From sequence record MZ501103: a stretch of 64,000 nt of DNA; one strand, written 5' to 3'. Below the pieces are notes generated by a model, which made no database searches, was not told where the DNA came from, and saw nothing but the letters and a program-made list of their open reading frames with translations. Source of the stretch: Escherichia phage SelmaRatti. Positions 24,387 to 41,876 of this stretch are shown one piece after another (the first letter of the stretch is position 1; every line of letters begins with the position of its first letter). Position numbers and translations under genes: made by a program.

Positions 24387-25076
24387 ATGAAAAAATTAAC
24401 ACAGGAAGAAGTAGAGAGTTACCTAGTTAGTAGAGGCTTATTCACTAATGATAAGTATACTAATACTAGGACTAAAATGCAGTTCTGTTGCACCTATGGA
24501 CATGTTTTTAATGCTACCCTAAATAATATTAGGAACGGAAGAGGTTGTCCCTACTGCTATGGAAATGTTAGGTACACTCAAGAACAAGTATCTGAATATT
24601 TGCGTAGTTTAGGATATTACACCATTACCAAATATATAAATAATAACTCTAAGCTACAACTTACTTGTAGTAAGGGGCATGTATGGATTACCACTTTTAG
24701 TGCCATAAAAAATATGGGTAATAGATGCCCTGAGTGCTCCAATATATGGAGCGATGGTGGGATACTTTATATAATAACTAGTTCATTAGGTACAAAAATA
24801 GGAATTACTAATTCTCCTGCTCGTAGGTTAAGGGATTTGATTACTGCATCCGGGGATCCCACAGCTAAGTATTATGGTCATTATACATATGGTAGCTCTT
24901 CTAAATCAGAAACCCTTGCTTTAGAGAAGAAGGCACATATGTATTTTAAAAGTCATAATTGTGGTTATAGTGGATTTGCTGGATCTACTGAATACTTTAA
25001 TATTTCCACCGAAGAGGCAGAAGAATTCCTCTTGAAAGAGGGGGCCACAATAGTACAGAAAGAGGGTGGTTTATGA
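24387..25076 (+). CDS. T5orf172-type endonuclease-like protein
   Basis: Paralog of 9649-10512: GH.W/GCPxC zinc ribbons plus ILYIITSSLGTKIGITNSPARRL. Confidence 0.6.
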   Translation: MKKLTQEEVESYLVSRGLFTNDKYTNTRTKMQFCCTYGHVFNATLNNIRNGRGCPYCYGNVRYTQEQVSEYLRSLGYYTITKYINNNSKLQLTCSKGHVWITTFSAIKNMGNRCPECSNIWSDGGILYIITSSLGTKIGITNSPARRLRDLITASGDPTAKYYGHYTYGSSSKSETLALEKKAHMYFKSHNCGYSGFAGSTEYFNISTEEAEEFLLKEGATIVQKEGGL

Positions 25077-25242: not shown

Positions 25243-25686
25243 ATGGAAGAGAATATTCTAGATGTTTTGCGTAGGGCTTTGCAGGGATCTAAGGTTGATG
25301 GTTCTGATAAAGAAGTAGCTAAAAGCTACCAGACCATAATCGGAGATCTTCAGCGTGTTGATAAAGACTTCATTACTTCTGAACAGTTTGTATCTTATCT
25401 AAAAGCTCAACTGAAAAGCATTAATCAGACGAAAGCTAAACTTCACGGTCAAGACCTTGATAATTATAGCTTGCAGTCTGCTCAGTATGAATATATACTG
25501 AACAAATGGTTACAGCAGTATTTGCCACCTCAGTTATCTGATTCTGAGATTCGCAAATACTTTGCAGAATTAGTTAAGTTGAACCCTGGGATTACAAAAG
25601 GTATGCTGATGAAAGCGATTAAGGAAGAATTTCCTGGGCGTTATGATGGTGGTACTGCTGCTCAGATTGCTGGCGAATTTAATTAA
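25243..25686 (+). CDS. GatB/YqeY-domain protein
   Basis: C-terminal LPPQLSDSEIRKYFAELVKLNPGITKGMLMKAIKEEFPGRYDGGTAAQIAGE resembles YqeY. Confidence 0.55.
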   Translation: MEENILDVLRRALQGSKVDGSDKEVAKSYQTIIGDLQRVDKDFITSEQFVSYLKAQLKSINQTKAKLHGQDLDNYSLQSAQYEYILNKWLQQYLPPQLSDSEIRKYFAELVKLNPGITKGMLMKAIKEEFPGRYDGGTAAQIAGEFN

Positions 25687-25694
25687 AAATTTAC

Positions 25695-25723
25695 TTGCTA
25701 AATGCTTATAAATTCTGTATAAT
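25695..25723 (+). promoter_or_regulatory. T5-type early promoter
   Basis: TTGCTA-17-TATAAT followed by the recurrent CATAAATT box. Confidence 0.65.
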
Positions 25724-25800
25724 ATATTCATAAATTAGAGAGTAATTCTTCTCTAATTTATTAAATAGTGGGGTGTGGAAATCACTTATGTAGTAACACT

Positions 25801-25872
25801 GCCGTCCTAGTATAATTGGTATTATCAAGCCGTAACTGGTGGAAGATGTAGGTTCGAATCCTACGGTCGGTA
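25801..25872 (+). pseudogene. tRNA-like element, degenerate (no clean anticodon arm)
   Basis: Perfect T-arm GTAGG-TTCGAAT-CCTAC and 6/7 acceptor pairing, but D and anticodon stems do not fold canonically. Confidence 0.35.
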
Positions 25873-26375
25873 AGAACTGGATAACTGATGCTTTTAACGT
25901 AAAAGCTTCCGAGGTTAGTTGCGCACTGCCTAAACCACGCGGTAGTTGGTTCCAGACTAACCAACCAGTCTGCTGAATAGTTTTATTACGATTTAACTAT
26001 GTCCAGGCTAAAGAAGAACTTTAGAAGGTATTTCTAGGGTAGTGAAGTTCTTTCTCCATATCGGAGTAGTTTTTCAGGCTATCCACAAAGTGGGAAATGC
26101 TGACATGAGAGATGTCACTAATGGTGCACAATAGCACAGGTAATTCGCGATAACTCCTGTTGAGTAGCAGCAAAAGGCGGGAAGTCATGACCCCAAGCCT
26201 AACCGAGTCCTCAATATACCGCAGGACATAACCACTAAGTCACCCTGACTTAAACTGGAAAATAATAGACGTTACCGTATTTTGTCTTGAAATACTTAAT
26301 GAGTGAGACTTATGACTCTCCCGGTATCGTCTGTATTTTTAAGAGTTTTTACGAGAGTTCTTAAAAATACTTAAA

Positions 26376-26450
26376 CGGGGTGTAGTCTAAGGGAGAGGCA
26401 GGAGTCTTCTAAATTCCTTTATGCAGGTTCGAATCCTGTCACCTCGGCCA
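26376..26450 (+). tRNA. tRNA-Arg(TCT)
   Basis: Hand-folded cloverleaf: acceptor CGGGGTG/CACCTCG, anticodon loop CTTCTAA, T-loop TTCGAAT, encoded CCA. Confidence 0.65.
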
Positions 26451-29517: not shown

Positions 29518-29600
29518 GGGTCGTTAGCCAAGTGGTTTGGCGGCGGATTGTTAATCCGTGTCGAAAGACAACGTAGGTTCGATTCCTGCACCCGCTGCCA
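29518..29600 (+). pseudogene. tRNA-Asn(GTT)-like, aberrant (about 14-nt extra segment, non-pairing acceptor)
   Basis: D-arm GCCA/TGGC and anticodon arm GCGGA-TTGTTAA-TCCGT fold well, but 3-prime ACCCGCT does not pair with 5-prime GGGTCGT. Confidence 0.4.
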
Positions 29601-30979: not shown

Positions 30980-31074
30980 GGTAGGTCAATCCAACGGCTG
31001 GCGATGGACTCCGACTTGAAATCGGTTGATCGTAGTGATACGGTGTAAGGGTTCGATCCCCTTACCTACCTCCA
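30980..31074 (+). tRNA. tRNA-Ser(TGA)-like, long variable arm
   Basis: Acceptor GGTAGGT/ACCTACC, T-arm AAGGG-TTCGATC-CCCTT, anticodon stem-loop CCGA-CTTGAAA-TCGG, CCA. Confidence 0.55.
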
Positions 31075-31440: not shown

Positions 31441-31531
31441 GTGGCTATATCATAATTGGTTAATGATCCTGATTGTGAATCAGGCCTTCCAAGCCTCGCT
31501 GAGTAGGGTTCGATTCCCTCTAGCAGCTCCA
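31441..31531 (+). tRNA. tRNA-His(GTG)-like with unusually long extra arm
   Basis: D-arm TCAT/ATGA, anticodon arm CCTGA-TTGTGAA-TCAGG, T-loop TTCGATT, CCA; 19-nt variable region and one acceptor mismatch. Confidence 0.45.
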
Positions 31532-40468: not shown

Positions 40469-40878
40469 GTTTTAAATTTGGTAAAAATAGCGAAAAACAA
40501 TTAGCTACTGTTAAGCCAGAGCTACAAAAAGTAGCTCGTAGGGCTTTAGAATTATCTCCATATGATTTCACGATCGTACAGGGTATTCGTACAGTAGCAC
40601 AAAGTGCCCAGAATATTGCTAATGGTACTTCATTTTTAAAAGATCCTAGTAAAAGCAAGCATATTACTGGGGATGCTCTTGATTTTGCTCCATATATTAA
40701 TGGCAAAATTGATTGGAATGACTTAGAAGCATTTTGGGCAGTTAAAAAGGCTTTTGAACAAGCTGGTAAAGAGCTAGGCATTAAACTTCGTTTTGGTGCT
40801 GATTGGAATGCTTCGGGAGACTATCACGATGAAATAAAACGTGGTACCTATGATGGCGGTCATGTAGAACTAGTTTAA
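40465..40878 (+). CDS. endolysin, M15-family L-alanyl-D-glutamate peptidase-like
   Basis: 137 aa; HITGDALDF and DGGHVEL zinc-peptidase motifs. Confidence 0.75.
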   Translation: MSFKFGKNSEKQLATVKPELQKVARRALELSPYDFTIVQGIRTVAQSAQNIANGTSFLKDPSKSKHITGDALDFAPYINGKIDWNDLEAFWAVKKAFEQAGKELGIKLRFGADWNASGDYHDEIKRGTYDGGHVELV

Positions 40879-40888
40879 TTAATAACTT

Positions 40889-40914
40889 AGGCGGGAATAT
40901 TCCCGCCTTTTTAG
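40889..40914 (+). terminator. rho-independent terminator
   Basis: GGCGGGA-ATAT-TCCCGCC hairpin then TTTTT. Confidence 0.7.
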
Positions 40915-40955
40915 GCAAAGGGGGCTTTAATAATTTTTGAAGATAGGAGAAAGCC

Positions 40956-41372
40956 ATGTTTGCAGAACTATTCACTATGATGCTGCTAGGTATCTGGAAA
41001 ATAAGTCTAGTAGTATTCGTTTTAATGATAGTCTTTACTATCCTTGCATTAACTACCCGAAATAGCTTATTAATAAAGGTTATTCACGGACTAGAGTATA
41101 TAATTATGGGTTCATTCGGCGTTTGTAAATGCAATTGCCATAGAGATACGAAATATTGTTGGTTATGGATGGAACTAGAGAATCCTATATCCATAGCTTT
41201 GGCTGTTTCATTCGGTATGATTCTTATGGCCCTTACTCTAGCATTAATACCTTTGATGTTAGCTGGAGGAGTTACAGCGTATTTCACCCTTTTCTCCCCA
41301 ATAACTATGTACTCAATTTACCCAATAACTATGTATCTAGTTAGGAAAAGATTTATACATGTAGTAGATTAA
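40956..41372 (+). CDS. hypothetical polytopic membrane protein (138 aa)
   Basis: Several hydrophobic helices. Confidence 0.5.
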   Translation: MFAELFTMMLLGIWKISLVVFVLMIVFTILALTTRNSLLIKVIHGLEYIIMGSFGVCKCNCHRDTKYCWLWMELENPISIALAVSFGMILMALTLALIPLMLAGGVTAYFTLFSPITMYSIYPITMYLVRKRFIHVVD

Positions 41373-41447
41373 GATAAAAAAGTAGTTGACTTTTAGCCCT
41401 AGTTATTATATAATATATACATAAATTAGTTAAGAGAGGTATATATT

Positions 41448-41876
41448 ATGTCTGATCGTTTCTACACTCAAATGGCTGAACATTTTCGTATACCACATTA
41501 CGAGCTAAACATTGCACTCCGTGATCATGACTCTCCTGAGTACAAAAAGCTCGAAAAGAAAGCGGAAAAATCTATTGATACAAAGGTAGGTGCATCTATG
41601 TCTAAGGGCAAAAAGTTAACTCGTCTTGATCTTAATAAAATTTTAACTGAACTTTTGGGTACTGATATTGAAGGTGCTAAATTACCGCTTCTTGTACTAG
41701 AGACTATGATTAAAAAGGTCAAAAATAAAGAGTATAAAAAGGTAGAAGTCCCAGAAGGAAGATTGAAGGCTCCTTATCAGGAAGCATTAACCGAGTGTTT
41801 GGGTGTAAATCTTGATCTGAGCACCGCAACCGTAAAAACTATGAAAAACTTCTTAGAGGCCATTAATAAATTGTGA
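41448..41876 (+). CDS. hypothetical protein (142 aa)
   Basis: ORF after T5-type promoter. Confidence 0.5.
   Translation: MSDRFYTQMAEHFRIPHYELNIALRDHDSPEYKKLEKKAEKSIDTKVGASMSKGKKLTRLDLNKILTELLGTDIEGAKLPLLVLETMIKKVKNKEYKKVEVPEGRLKAPYQEALTECLGVNLDLSTATVKTMKNFLEAINKL

What the first reader, a model, noticed from the sequence alone, without database searches (positions are those of the whole stretch)
25775..26375. About 500 nt of non-coding sequence led by a degenerate tRNA-like element
Seen in sequence: after a T5-type promoter (25695-25723) comes a tRNA-like element (25801-25872) with a perfect T-arm and near-complete acceptor pairing but no foldable anticodon arm, then about 500 nt with only one 60-aa reverse ORF and several stem-loops, ending at tRNA-Arg(TCT). 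Inference: a tRNA-like processing handle followed by a stable non-coding RNA, or a decayed tRNA gene.
Basis: inference. Interest (0 to 1): 0.55.

Follow-up and report, generated by a model that had tools for sequence, protein, structure and literature searches.

The report
Phage T5 "RNAX" structured RNA gene
This stretch is the T5-phage gene rnaX, listed in GenBank since 2004 as a "stable RNA with unknown functions"; comparison of 43 phage versions indicates a large folded non-coding RNA that contains a tRNA look-alike as one internal branch, and its role is still unknown.

Summary
A sigma-70 promoter (25695-25723) is followed by about 645 nt with no conserved ORF, ending at tRNA-Arg(TCT) (26376). 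Rfam's tRNA model hits 25801-25872 at 35.5 bits but skips the anticodon arm; ARAGORN makes no call.

It is not new. The interval is the ortholog (92.8% identity) of T5 rnaX, annotated "RNAX, stable RNA with unknown functions" in T5, BF23, DT57C and Salmonella phage 5. I found no Rfam family and no paper on it.

New here, from 43 distinct Demerecviridae sequences:
- The whole interval fits a conserved fold: 116 pairs, 87.9% paired against 35-47% for slid controls, and 41 pairs with compensatory changes against 17-23.
- The tRNA-like part keeps acceptor, D and T arms with compensatory changes. Its "anticodon arm" is a short stem with a 6-nt loop.
- It is an internal, replaceable branch: conserved RNA starts about 35 nt upstream, and Eps7-type phages carry an unrelated stem-loop there.
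- The body has invariant single-stranded islands, a possible pseudoknot, and an invariant palindromic loop (AGUCAUGA).
- A UNCG-capped hairpin sits 5 nt before tRNA-Arg.

The "decayed tRNA" reading is rejected and "stable ncRNA" is supported. My best guess at function, unproven, is a GOLLD/ROOL-like phage RNA.

The parts
25695..25723 (+). Sigma-70-type promoter (TTGCTA-17-TATAAT), equivalent to T5 promoter P16-17.
   Evidence: Promoter scan. The homologous T5 feature is annotated 'promoter P 16-17' and is also annotated in BF23.
25730..25761 (+). 5' leader hairpin with a 13-bp stem (AUAAAUUAGAGAG / CUCUAAUUUAU). In many relatives its apex carries an extra domain of about 162 nt.
   Evidence: Fold. 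Alignment with Baret shows a 162-nt insertion inside this hairpin. The insertion is single-copy and present in 248 phage records, including Klebsiella phages.
25765..25800 (+). Conserved leader AUAGUGGGGUGUGGAAAUCACUUAUGUAGUAACACU. It includes GUGG at 25768-25771, a candidate long-range pairing partner, and the invariant AACACU just before the tRNA-like domain.
   Evidence: Upstream alignment across 14 phages. Invariant columns. In DU_PP_V, GUGG becomes ACGG together with CCAC becoming CCGU.
25801..25872 (+). tRNA-like domain. It has a 7-bp acceptor stem with one mismatch, a D-arm with G18 G19, a T-arm with loop UUCGAAU, a short 3-bp stem with a 6-nt loop in place of the anticodon arm, and no encoded CCA.
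   Evidence: Rfam tRNA 35.5 bits; no ARAGORN call. Covariation on alignment A4: 87.6% of cells paired against 33-47% when slid, and 13 pairs with changes on both sides against 1-4. Orthologs are called Ser(act), SeC(tca), Leu(tag) or nothing.
25873..26332 (+). Structured body of RNAX. Helices:
- hairpin 25890-25906
- helix 25877-25882 with 26001-26006
- long-range helix 26045-26053 with 26289-26297, which crosses helix 26268-26277 with 26322-26331 (a possible pseudoknot)

Invariant single-stranded islands:
- CUAAACCACG at 25930-25939
- AGUGGGAAA at 26089-26097
- AUAACCACU at 26228-26236
- UAAACUGGAA at 26251-26260
   Evidence: RNAalifold runs. Curated structure counted on alignment A3: 116 pairs, 87.9% paired against 35-47% slid, 41 pairs with changes on both sides against 17-23, 0 of 500 shuffles reaching the observed values. 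My own slid control gave a similar result. G-U pairs number 193 against 92 A-C cells in the helices.
26175..26200 (+). Hairpin that presents the invariant 8-nt loop AGUCAUGA (26183-26190), whose core UCAUGA is a palindrome.
   Evidence: The loop is invariant in all 43 sequences. The closing stem has a different sequence in each lineage: GGC/GCC, GUGAC/GUCAC, ACUAAAY/GUUUAGU, CUAGAC/GUCUAG.
26238..26250 (+). Hairpin AGUCA-CCC-UGACU. Its arms have the same sequences as the two halves of the invariant loop above.
   Evidence: Its sequence is the same in 42 of 43 sequences; DU_PP_V keeps the arms AGUC/GACU around a different loop.
26333..26370 (+). 3'-terminal 17-bp hairpin capped by a UACG (UNCG-type) tetraloop, ending 5 nt before tRNA-Arg.
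   Evidence: Folds. 98% of cells are paired, with conserved G-U wobbles. The loop varies as UACG, UGCG or UUCG. The same hairpin sits 4 nt before tRNA-Arg in a Felixounavirus.
26376..26450 (+). tRNA-Arg(TCT) with an encoded CCA. Its RNase P site would set the 3' end of RNAX.
   Evidence: ARAGORN and Rfam at 49.3 bits. The T5, BF23 and DT57C annotations end rnaX at the base before this tRNA.

Best explanation
The interval from about 25730 to 26375 is the rnaX gene of a T5-like phage (Tequintavirus).

What the sequence comparisons show or strongly indicate:
- The strong early promoter at 25695-25723 is positioned to transcribe RNAX, tRNA-Arg and the SPFH gene as one unit.
- RNAX is a non-coding RNA of about 640 nt that adopts a conserved multi-domain fold.
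- From 5' to 3' the fold has a leader hairpin, a conserved leader, a tRNA-like branch, and a body of about 460 nt. The body has several hairpins, long-range helices, a probable pseudoknot and invariant single-stranded islands. A terminal hairpin capped by a UNCG tetraloop closes it.
- The tRNA-like branch keeps the tRNA acceptor, D and T arms but cannot decode, and it is replaceable.

What is inferred from established tRNA-processing knowledge:
- RNase P cleavage at the 5' end of tRNA-Arg releases RNAX with the stable hairpin 5 nt from its 3' end, which would protect it from 3' exonucleases.
- The tRNA-like branch has a 12-bp acceptor/T stack, U at position -1 and an intact T and D loop. It is therefore a plausible second RNase P site, or a docking site for tRNA-binding proteins.

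Function, which is a guess that I commit to:
- RNAX acts in trans as a stable RNA scaffold. This is the same kind of role suspected for GOLLD and ROOL, the large ornate phage RNAs found beside tRNA gene clusters.
- Its conserved 3' core forms a compact tertiary structure.
- The invariant palindromic loop AGUCAUGA mediates either loop-loop self-association or docking on the related hairpin AGUCA-CCY-UGACU.
- The tRNA-like branch is an accessory surface for tRNA-binding factors.
For: Identity:
- 92.8% identity over the full length to the T5 interval annotated rnaX, 95.7% to DT57C rnaX and 97.3% to BF23 rnaX, with the same neighbours: YqeY-like gene, promoter P16-17, rnaX, tRNA-Arg, SPFH gene.
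- Homologs occur in at least 525 phage records.
- The architecture is kept in Markadamsvirinae, Sugarlandvirus and Hongcheonvirus.

Non-coding:
- No ORF is conserved in place, frame or length.

Structure:
- tRNA-like domain plus the next hairpin: 87.6% of cells paired against 33-47% in slid controls, 13 pairs with changes on both sides against 1-4, and 0 of 500 shuffles reaching the observed values.
- Whole RNA: 116 pairs, 87.9% against 35-47%, 41 against 17-23 compensatory pairs, covariation score 0.180 against 0.04-0.07, and 0 of 500 shuffles.
- 3' domain: 85.5% against 36-52%.
- The stem under the invariant loop has a different sequence in every lineage.
- In DU_PP_V, both GUGG motifs become ACGG and both CCAC motifs become CCGU.
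- G-U pairs are twice as frequent as A-C cells in the helices, which fits an RNA read from the + strand.
- The fold z-score is -3.85.

Modularity typical of large structured RNAs:
- The optional 162-nt apical domain.
- Lineage-specific insertions.
- The tRNA-like branch replaced by another stem-loop in Eps7, L039 and L071, with the flanks kept.

Independence from tRNA-Arg:
- ORFs of homing-endonuclease size are inserted between the hairpin and tRNA-Arg in SE24, CitS1, ende and gmork, and RNAX is unchanged.

Context parallel:
- GOLLD and ROOL are phage RNAs often found near tRNA islands, and GOLLD sometimes carries tRNAs in its linker (PMC12286853 and PMC5737381).
Against: - 'Stable RNA' rests on an unreferenced GenBank note, and I found no paper on rnaX.
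- The structure was derived partly from the same sequences on which it was counted.
- Most of the 43 sequences are close relatives, so independent compensatory events are few. Several rest on single lineages, such as DU_PP_V and the Klebsiella phages.
- RNAalifold gave different global topologies on different alignments, so the long-range helices and the pseudoknot are provisional.
- There is no covariance-model similarity to GOLLD, ROOL or any other large RNA at E up to 10.
- The most conserved elements (palindromic loop, AGUCA hairpin, 3' hairpin stem) do not vary, so they give no covariation evidence for any partner.
- Loss of the tRNA-like branch in Eps7-type phages shows it is not needed for the core function.
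- The self-association idea is pure inference.
Confidence: 0.6

Rival explanations
1. Cis-acting leader. The structured RNA is only the long 5' leader of the tRNA-Arg / SPFH transcript. Its folds control processing, stability or timing of what lies downstream, and it has no function once cut off.
For: It is positioned to be co-transcribed with tRNA-Arg from one promoter and abuts it. The 3' hairpin followed by tRNA-Arg also travels as a unit in a Felixounavirus that lacks the rest of RNAX.
Against: A leader of 560-870 nt with invariant single-stranded islands, long-range helices and optional peripheral domains is far more elaborate than known leaders. RNAX is unchanged where ORFs separate it from tRNA-Arg: SE24, CitS1, ende and gmork have a 510-nt ORF, and the Klebsiella phages have two or more ORFs. 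GenBank annotators call it a stable RNA.
Confidence: 0.2
2. Ribozyme. RNAX is a catalytic RNA, for example one that processes itself or acts on tRNA, with the tRNA-like branch as a built-in substrate mimic or docking module.
For: Its size, its invariant unpaired nucleotides at junctions, the probable pseudoknot and the variable peripheral helices are the profile of bacterial ribozymes.
Against: It does not match any ribozyme family in Rfam, including RNase P, group I and II introns and the small self-cleavers, at E up to 10. No candidate cleavage site or reaction could be identified. The tRNA-like branch is dispensable.
Confidence: 0.08
3. DNA-level element, such as a replication origin, a protein-binding control region or a target for homing endonucleases, rather than an RNA.
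For: It is an AT-rich intergenic region with palindromes (GTCATGAC; AGTCA-N3-TGACT) and a conserved inverted repeat. Homing-endonuclease-like genes are nearby.
Against: Compensatory changes keep RNA pairing. G-U pairs outnumber A-C cells two to one on the + strand, and conserved G-U wobbles in the 3' hairpin would be C-A mismatches on the other strand. A strong promoter reads into it. It contains a tRNA-shaped domain.
Confidence: 0.04
4. A decayed tRNA gene followed by neutral spacer or spurious small ORFs.
For: The anticodon arm is non-canonical and no CCA is encoded. Annotation pipelines label it tRNA-OTHER, pseudo or SeC. Some records call small hypothetical CDSs here.
Against: The tRNA-like arms are kept by compensatory changes across subfamilies. 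The 'spacer' is 74-99% identical across genera with invariant islands. The ORFs are not conserved.
Confidence: 0.03

Closest known systems
T5 rnaX ('RNAX, stable RNA with unknown functions'), annotated in GenBank AY543070 (T5), the BF23 tRNA region NC_042564, DT57C NC_027356 and Salmonella phage 5 AJ604531
   Same: It is the orthologous locus. Identity is 92.8-97.3%, with the same promoter, the same downstream tRNA-Arg and SPFH gene, and the same upstream YqeY-like gene.
   Different: The window's copy (about 640 nt) lacks the 162-nt apical domain of BF23, Baret and others, and lacks the 82-nt insertion of T5 that duplicates the AGUCA hairpin and AACUGGAA module. The database entries give no structure, no domains and no function.
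GOLLD and ROOL, the large ornate RNAs of phages and prophages (Rfam families; cryo-EM nanocages in PMC12286853)
   Same: They are phage-encoded and sit next to tRNA gene clusters. They are longer than 500 nt, with many junctions and pseudoknots. GOLLD has a conserved 3' part and a variable 5' part that sometimes carries tRNAs. Their function is unknown. RNAX likewise has a more variable 5' half carrying a tRNA-like branch and a better conserved 3' half.
   Different: There is no sequence or covariance-model similarity. The hosts are enterobacterial lytic T5-like phages. Oligomerisation of RNAX is untested. The embedded element is a non-decoding mimic and not a real tRNA.
tRNA-like processing handles, such as MALAT1/mascRNA, and gammaherpesvirus 68 tRNA-miRNA transcripts (recalled from my own knowledge)
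   Same: A tRNA-shaped module inside a longer non-coding transcript could recruit RNase P or RNase Z to define the ends of the transcript.
   Different: Those are eukaryotic and the handle is essential for maturation. Here the handle is internal, is flanked by conserved sequence on both sides, and is replaced by a plain stem-loop in some phages.
T4 species 1 and species 2 RNAs (rnaC, rnaD), stable RNAs of unknown function in the T4 tRNA cluster (recalled from my own knowledge, not tested here)
   Same: They are stable phage RNAs of unknown function, co-transcribed and co-processed with phage tRNAs.
   Different: They are much smaller (about 120-140 nt). No sequence comparison was made here.
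tmRNA and bacterial Y RNA (YrlA), the known RNAs with a tRNA-like domain joined to another domain
   Same: They join a tRNA-like module, with a T-arm and an acceptor-like stem, to a non-tRNA module.
   Different: ARAGORN finds no tmRNA, and Rfam finds no tmRNA or Y RNA. The tRNA-like domain here is contiguous and has a full D-arm. I saw no tag reading frame and no Ro/Rsr gene nearby.

Membership tests
T5 rnaX (GenBank misc_RNA) | Sequence homology over the whole annotated RNA. | tested here: met
   92.8% to T5, 95.7% to DT57C and 97.3% to BF23, with 100% of the query covered and the features under the match named 'rnaX: RNAX'.
T5 rnaX (GenBank misc_RNA) | Synteny: promoter P16-17, then rnaX, then tRNA-Arg, then the T5.080 (SPFH) gene, with the T5.081 (YqeY-like) gene upstream. 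| tested here: met
T5 rnaX (GenBank misc_RNA) | Accumulates as a stable RNA in infected cells. | not testable with these tools
   Only the GenBank note says so. No paper or expression data were found.
tRNA (RF00005) | 7-bp acceptor stem, D-arm with G18 G19, and T-arm with a T-Psi-C loop. | tested here: met
   Rfam 35.5 bits against a gathering score of 29. The arms covary.
tRNA (RF00005) | Anticodon arm with a 5-bp stem and a 7-nt loop, with the anticodon conserved among orthologs. | tested here: not met
   The model skips this region. The stem is 3-4 bp with a 6-nt loop, and the arm is 14 nt longer in the Klebsiella phages IME260 and Roth49. ARAGORN assigns Ser(act), SeC(tca), Leu(tag) or nothing in different phages.
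tRNA (RF00005) | 3' CCA, encoded or added, and aminoacylation. | tested here: inconclusive
   CCA is not encoded: the sequence after the discriminator is AGA, whereas the neighbouring tRNA-Arg encodes CCA. Addition of CCA and charging cannot be tested with these tools.
GOLLD / ROOL large ornate RNAs | Match to the family covariance model. | tested here: not met
   No hit at E up to 10 in the window region or in relatives.
GOLLD / ROOL large ornate RNAs | Encoded by a phage, near a tRNA island, longer than 500 nt, with multi-junction structure and pseudoknots. | tested here: met
   Context. Structure, with the pseudoknot provisional. Family descriptions.
GOLLD / ROOL large ornate RNAs | Assembly into an RNA-only homo-oligomer. 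| not testable with these tools
   The only hint is the invariant palindromic loop.
tmRNA | tRNA-like domain formed by the 5' and 3' ends, a tag reading frame, and detection by ARAGORN or Rfam. | tested here: not met
   There is no tmRNA call, and the tRNA-like domain is contiguous.
RNase P RNA / group I or II intron / other Rfam ribozymes | Match to the family covariance model. | tested here: not met

The most novel reading that the evidence does not exclude
RNAX is the founding member of a third, sequence-unrelated class of large ornate phage RNAs associated with tRNA clusters, restricted to Demerecviridae. On this reading, its conserved 3' core folds into a pseudoknotted compact body. That body self-associates through the invariant palindromic loop AGUCAUGA, or through exchange with the AGUCA-N3-UGACU hairpin. 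It displays an internal tRNA mimic that captures a tRNA-binding factor, which could be RNase P, a modification enzyme, the neighbouring YqeY-like protein, or a host tRNA-directed defence nuclease.
Probability: 0.25. Interest if true: 0.8.

Novelty: already known. Interest (0 to 1): 0.55.

Why it matters
T5 is a classical and genetically tractable model phage, and its relatives are widely used in phage therapy and phage-defence screens. Yet a conserved RNA of 600-870 nt driven by a strong early promoter has no described structure, no Rfam family and no known function.

Large, highly structured bacterial and phage RNAs are rare, and most have turned out to be ribozymes or unusual assemblies such as the GOLLD and ROOL cages. 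RNAX offers the same open question in a system where deletion mutants, RNase P mutants, probing and cryo-EM are all straightforward.

There is also a practical annotation point. Pipelines currently label its tRNA-like branch as tRNA-OTHER or tRNA-SeC and place hypothetical CDSs over it, which inflates gene and tRNA counts in hundreds of T5-like genomes.

Tried and rejected
- Rfam search at gathering threshold and at E up to 10, on the window and on 14 relatives. Only tRNA matched. Low-scoring hits such as JA02, SpF41 and miRNAs are noise.
- Literature searches for rnaX/RNAX, T5 stable RNAs, T5 RNA-seq, and Demerecviridae with ncRNA. Nothing relevant was found. One listed match turned out to have no occurrence in the main text.
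- Search for more distant homologs:
  - A scan of viral contigs with the hairpin pattern gave only known T5-like genomes.
  - Loci related to the SPFH gene gave the same genomes plus irrelevant T4-like phages.
  - Metagenome and bacterial-genome scans with GGAGTCATGACC-N(125-155)-TTTAAGAG gave 2 true T5-like hits and 20 chance hits, with none in bacterial genomes.
  - Vibrio phage pVp-1 has coding sequence, not RNAX, before its tRNA-Arg.
- Group I intron idea, prompted by GUUCCAGACUAAC resembling the R element. I dropped it because that sequence is the loop and 3' arm of a local hairpin (GUUGGUU/AACCAAC), and Rfam gives no intron hit.
- The alternative helix 77-84 with 537-543 proposed by RNAalifold. 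I rejected it because it competes with the well-supported acceptor stem.
- TTACGAGAG occurs three times in the window, but the other two copies lie in coding sequence with no hairpin context.
- The 162-nt insertion as a mobile repeat. Rejected, because it occurs once per genome and always at this site.
- I did not build covariance models, so the alignments are sequence-based or anchor-based. Register shifts in divergent lineages lower the counts.
Full report
**What is there**

The window comes from a T5-like phage; its closest relatives are Tequintavirus genomes at about 99% identity. Between a YqeY-like gene (25243-25686) and tRNA-Arg(TCT) (26376-26450) lie about 690 nt with no convincing gene.

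- A sigma-70 promoter, TTGCTA-17-TATAAT, sits at 25695-25723.
- Rfam's tRNA model matches 25801-25872 at 35.5 bits (gathering score 29), but only by skipping the anticodon arm. ARAGORN does not call it.
- No other Rfam family matches, even at E up to 10.

The 'anticodon' region does form a short stem (3 bp in the window) with a 6-nt loop.

**It is already annotated**

In the T5 reference record AY543070, the orthologous interval (40848-41566, 719 nt) is a misc_RNA. It is named rnaX, 'RNAX, stable RNA with unknown functions'. Promoter P16-17 precedes it and tRNA-Arg follows it.

- BF23 (784 nt) and DT57C (636 nt) carry the same annotation, as does Salmonella phage 5.
- The window region is 92.8% identical to T5, 95.7% to DT57C and 97.3% to BF23 over its full length.
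- Other records label the tRNA-like part tRNA-OTHER, pseudo-tRNA or tRNA-SeC(tca), or place small hypothetical CDSs over the region.
- I found no paper on rnaX in the searchable library. 'Stable RNA' thus rests on the database note alone.

**Comparative material**

A distant BLAST finds homologs in 525 phage records. I fetched representatives of four groups:

- Tequintavirus
- Epseptimavirus
- the Klebsiella Sugarlandvirus group
- Pectobacterium phage DU_PP_V (Hongcheonvirus, a different subfamily)

I added copies from IMG/VR. This gave 43 distinct sequences in 18 clusters below 97% identity. The same layout recurs in all three lineages: tRNA-like element, 500-850 nt without a conserved ORF, the terminal hairpin, and then tRNA-Arg. 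In several phages one or more ORFs are inserted before the tRNA.

Scans of metagenomes and of 185,579 bacterial genomes, using a motif pair from the conserved core, returned only two true hits. Both were T5-like gut contigs, and there were none in bacterial genomes. As far as this pattern can see, the RNA is confined to T5-like phages. Vibrio phage pVp-1 lacks it at the equivalent place.

**The tRNA-like element is a selected fold and not a decoder**

Compensatory changes across 19 representatives:

| Arm | Change | Phage |
|---|---|---|
| Acceptor | C6-G67 to U-A | DT57C |
| Acceptor | the U5-U68 mismatch becomes A-U | T5 |
| T-arm | U-A to C-G | Stitch and Klebsiella phages |
| T-arm | A-U to G-C | SE24 group |
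| D-arm | rebuilt as AGUU/GACU | IME260 |

- G18 G19 and the T-loop UUCGA are kept throughout.
- Counted on alignment A4, the cloverleaf plus the next hairpin has 87.6% of cells paired against 33-47% for slid controls. It has 13 pairs with changes on both sides against 1-4, and no shuffle of 500 reaches the observed values.
- The arm in the anticodon position is a 3-4 bp stem with a 6-nt loop (GUAACU, UUCACC or AGCCAU). It is 14 nt longer in IME260.
- ARAGORN reads the orthologs as Ser(act), SeC(tca), Leu(tag) or nothing.
- No CCA is encoded, whereas tRNA-Arg next door encodes it.

The element therefore mimics the acceptor, D and T arms of a tRNA and cannot decode.

**It is an internal, replaceable branch**

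- The 35 nt upstream (AUAGUGGGGUG...UAUGUARYAACACU) are conserved in every lineage, although sequences further upstream diverge completely.
- In Eps7, L039 and L071 the element is replaced by an unrelated 48-nt stem-loop. It is closed at the same place (GCCAGA...UCUGG), and the flanks AACACU and AAAGA..GAUAAC are retained.

The RNA thus does not begin with the tRNA-like element, and its core function does not need it.

**The body is a conserved, complex fold**

No ORF is conserved in position, frame or length. The alignment shows invariant islands separated by helices that change sequence but keep pairing, plus lineage-specific insertions. The islands are:

- CUAAACCACG
- AUCGGAG
- AGUGGGAAA
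- GGAGUCAUGACC
- AUAACCAC
- AGUCACCYUGACU
- UAAACUGGAAGAUA
- CUUAAU

I counted a curated model of 116 pairs in 23 helices on the 43-sequence alignment A3:

| Measure | Model | Slid controls |
|---|---|---|
| Cells paired | 87.9% | 35-47% |
| Pairs with changes on both sides | 41 | 17-23 |
| Covariation score | 0.180 | 0.04-0.07 |

No shuffle of 500 reached the observed values. My own count on an anchored alignment agrees, and so does the 3' domain alone.

Notable features, numbered so that position 1 is window 25789:

- A helix 89-94 with 213-218 encloses the variable 5' half.
- A long-range helix 257-265 with 501-509 crosses helix 480-489 with 534-543, which suggests a pseudoknot.
- In DU_PP_V both GUGG motifs (leader and island 3) are ACGG, and both CCAC motifs (islands 1 and 7) are CCGU. 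This implies two long-range 4-5 bp helices, one of which ties the leader upstream of the tRNA-like branch to the body.

G-U pairs are twice as common as A-C cells in the helices, and the 3' hairpin has fixed G-U wobbles. This fits an RNA read from the + strand, not a DNA element.

Caveat: RNAalifold gave different global topologies on different alignments. The hairpins are therefore firm and the long-range pairs are provisional. Many compensatory changes also come from only a few lineages.

**Two conserved features suggest interactions**

1. AGUCAUGA (26183-26190) is invariant in all 43 sequences. It is always displayed as an 8-nt loop on a stem whose sequence differs between lineages. Its core UCAUGA is self-complementary. 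Its two halves equal the arms of the equally conserved hairpin AGUCA-CCY-UGACU at 26238-26250. This points to loop-loop self-association or to docking between the two elements, but neither can be tested here.
2. The terminal hairpin (26333-26370) has 17 bp and a UACG, UGCG or UUCG tetraloop. It is conserved in sequence and ends 5 nt before tRNA-Arg.

The same hairpin precedes tRNA-Arg by 4 nt in a Felixounavirus, where a second similar copy follows tRNA-Asp. That phage lacks the rest of RNAX. Where ORFs are inserted in Epseptimavirus and Klebsiella phages, the hairpin stays with RNAX.

**How it most likely works**

Shown or strongly indicated: a conserved, structured, non-coding RNA, on the + strand, positioned to be read by a strong promoter.

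Inferred from textbook tRNA processing:
- RNase P cleavage at tRNA-Arg releases RNAX with a protective hairpin at its 3' end.
- The tRNA-like branch, with its 12-bp acceptor/T stack, U at -1 and intact T and D loops, could be a second RNase P site or a docking site for tRNA-binding proteins.
- The gene just upstream is a weak YqeY-family match (25.7 bits against a cut-off of 27). YqeY is a domain family linked to tRNA binding.

Guess: the RNA acts in trans as a stable scaffold of the GOLLD/ROOL kind. Those RNAs are also phage-encoded, sit beside tRNA islands, have a conserved 3' part and a variable 5' part that can carry tRNAs, and have no known function. There is no sequence or model similarity to them, so this is an analogy and not membership.

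Rivals:
- A purely cis-acting leader (0.2) is weakened by the RNA's complexity and its independence from tRNA-Arg adjacency.
- A ribozyme (0.08) has no family match and no identifiable reaction.
- A DNA-level element (0.04) is contradicted by the strand-specific pairing.
- A decayed tRNA plus spacer (0.03) is contradicted by the covariation.

**Verdict**

The object, however, is the already annotated T5 rnaX. Its function remains open and is readily testable in T5.

Noticed in passing
L001:1593-1756 (Escherichia phage Baret); insertion point in the window is about 25743-25750: Many relatives carry an extra domain of about 162 nt inside the apex of the RNAX 5' leader hairpin. It is single-copy, occurs in 248 phage records including Klebsiella phages, and is absent from the window, T5 and SP01. 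Some records place a 34-aa CDS over it.
   Followed up: partly
L090:1498-1535 and L090:560-597 (Felixounavirus LF110P1): The RNAX 3' hairpin (CUUUAAG..UNCG-like loop..CUUAAAG) recurs in an unrelated phage family. One copy lies 4 nt before tRNA-Arg(TCT) and a second similar copy follows tRNA-Asp. This may be a shared processing or stability module of phage tRNA clusters.
   Followed up: partly
L013:886-990 (Eps7), and also L039 and L071: Eps7-type phages have replaced the tRNA-like domain of RNAX with an unrelated 48-nt stem-loop and kept the flanks and the rest of the RNA.
   Followed up: yes
L004 (T5), minus strand, inside the rnaX insertion; alignment A5 columns about 78-200: T5 itself has an 82-nt insertion that duplicates the AGUCACCUUGAC-UAAACUGGAA module around a new hairpin.
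   Followed up: no
window 29518-29594 (+): Rfam calls a tRNA here (41.1 bits) that ARAGORN does not report. It could be a second tRNA-like RNA or an unusual tRNA. T5 annotates several 'tRNA-like stable RNAs' (RNA1, RNA2, RNA3) in this cluster.
   Followed up: no
window 31441-31531 (+) and 30980-31074 (+): ARAGORN reports a 91-nt tRNA-His and a 95-nt tRNA-Ser. The His gene is much longer than the 77-78 nt T5 tRNA-His. The call may include an adjacent stable-RNA segment or an insertion.
   Followed up: no
window 24387-25076 (+): A 229-aa ORF with T5orf172/GIY-YIG-like, CapR and zinc-finger domains. It looks like a homing endonuclease and lies two genes upstream of rnaX.
   Followed up: no
L016:1014-1771 (Klebsiella phage K7_rec14) and L018:1628-2385 (Roth49): Annotation pipelines place three or four 'hypothetical protein' CDSs over the RNAX homolog in Klebsiella phages. 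These are probably false gene calls.
   Followed up: no
window 25243-25686 (+): The gene upstream of rnaX is a weak YqeY-family match (PF09424, 25.7 bits, cut-off 27) and is annotated 'tRNA amidotransferase' or 'recombination-related exonuclease' in different records. Given the tRNA-binding association of the YqeY/GatB tail domain, it is a candidate partner of the tRNA-like branch or of the phage tRNAs.
   Followed up: partly
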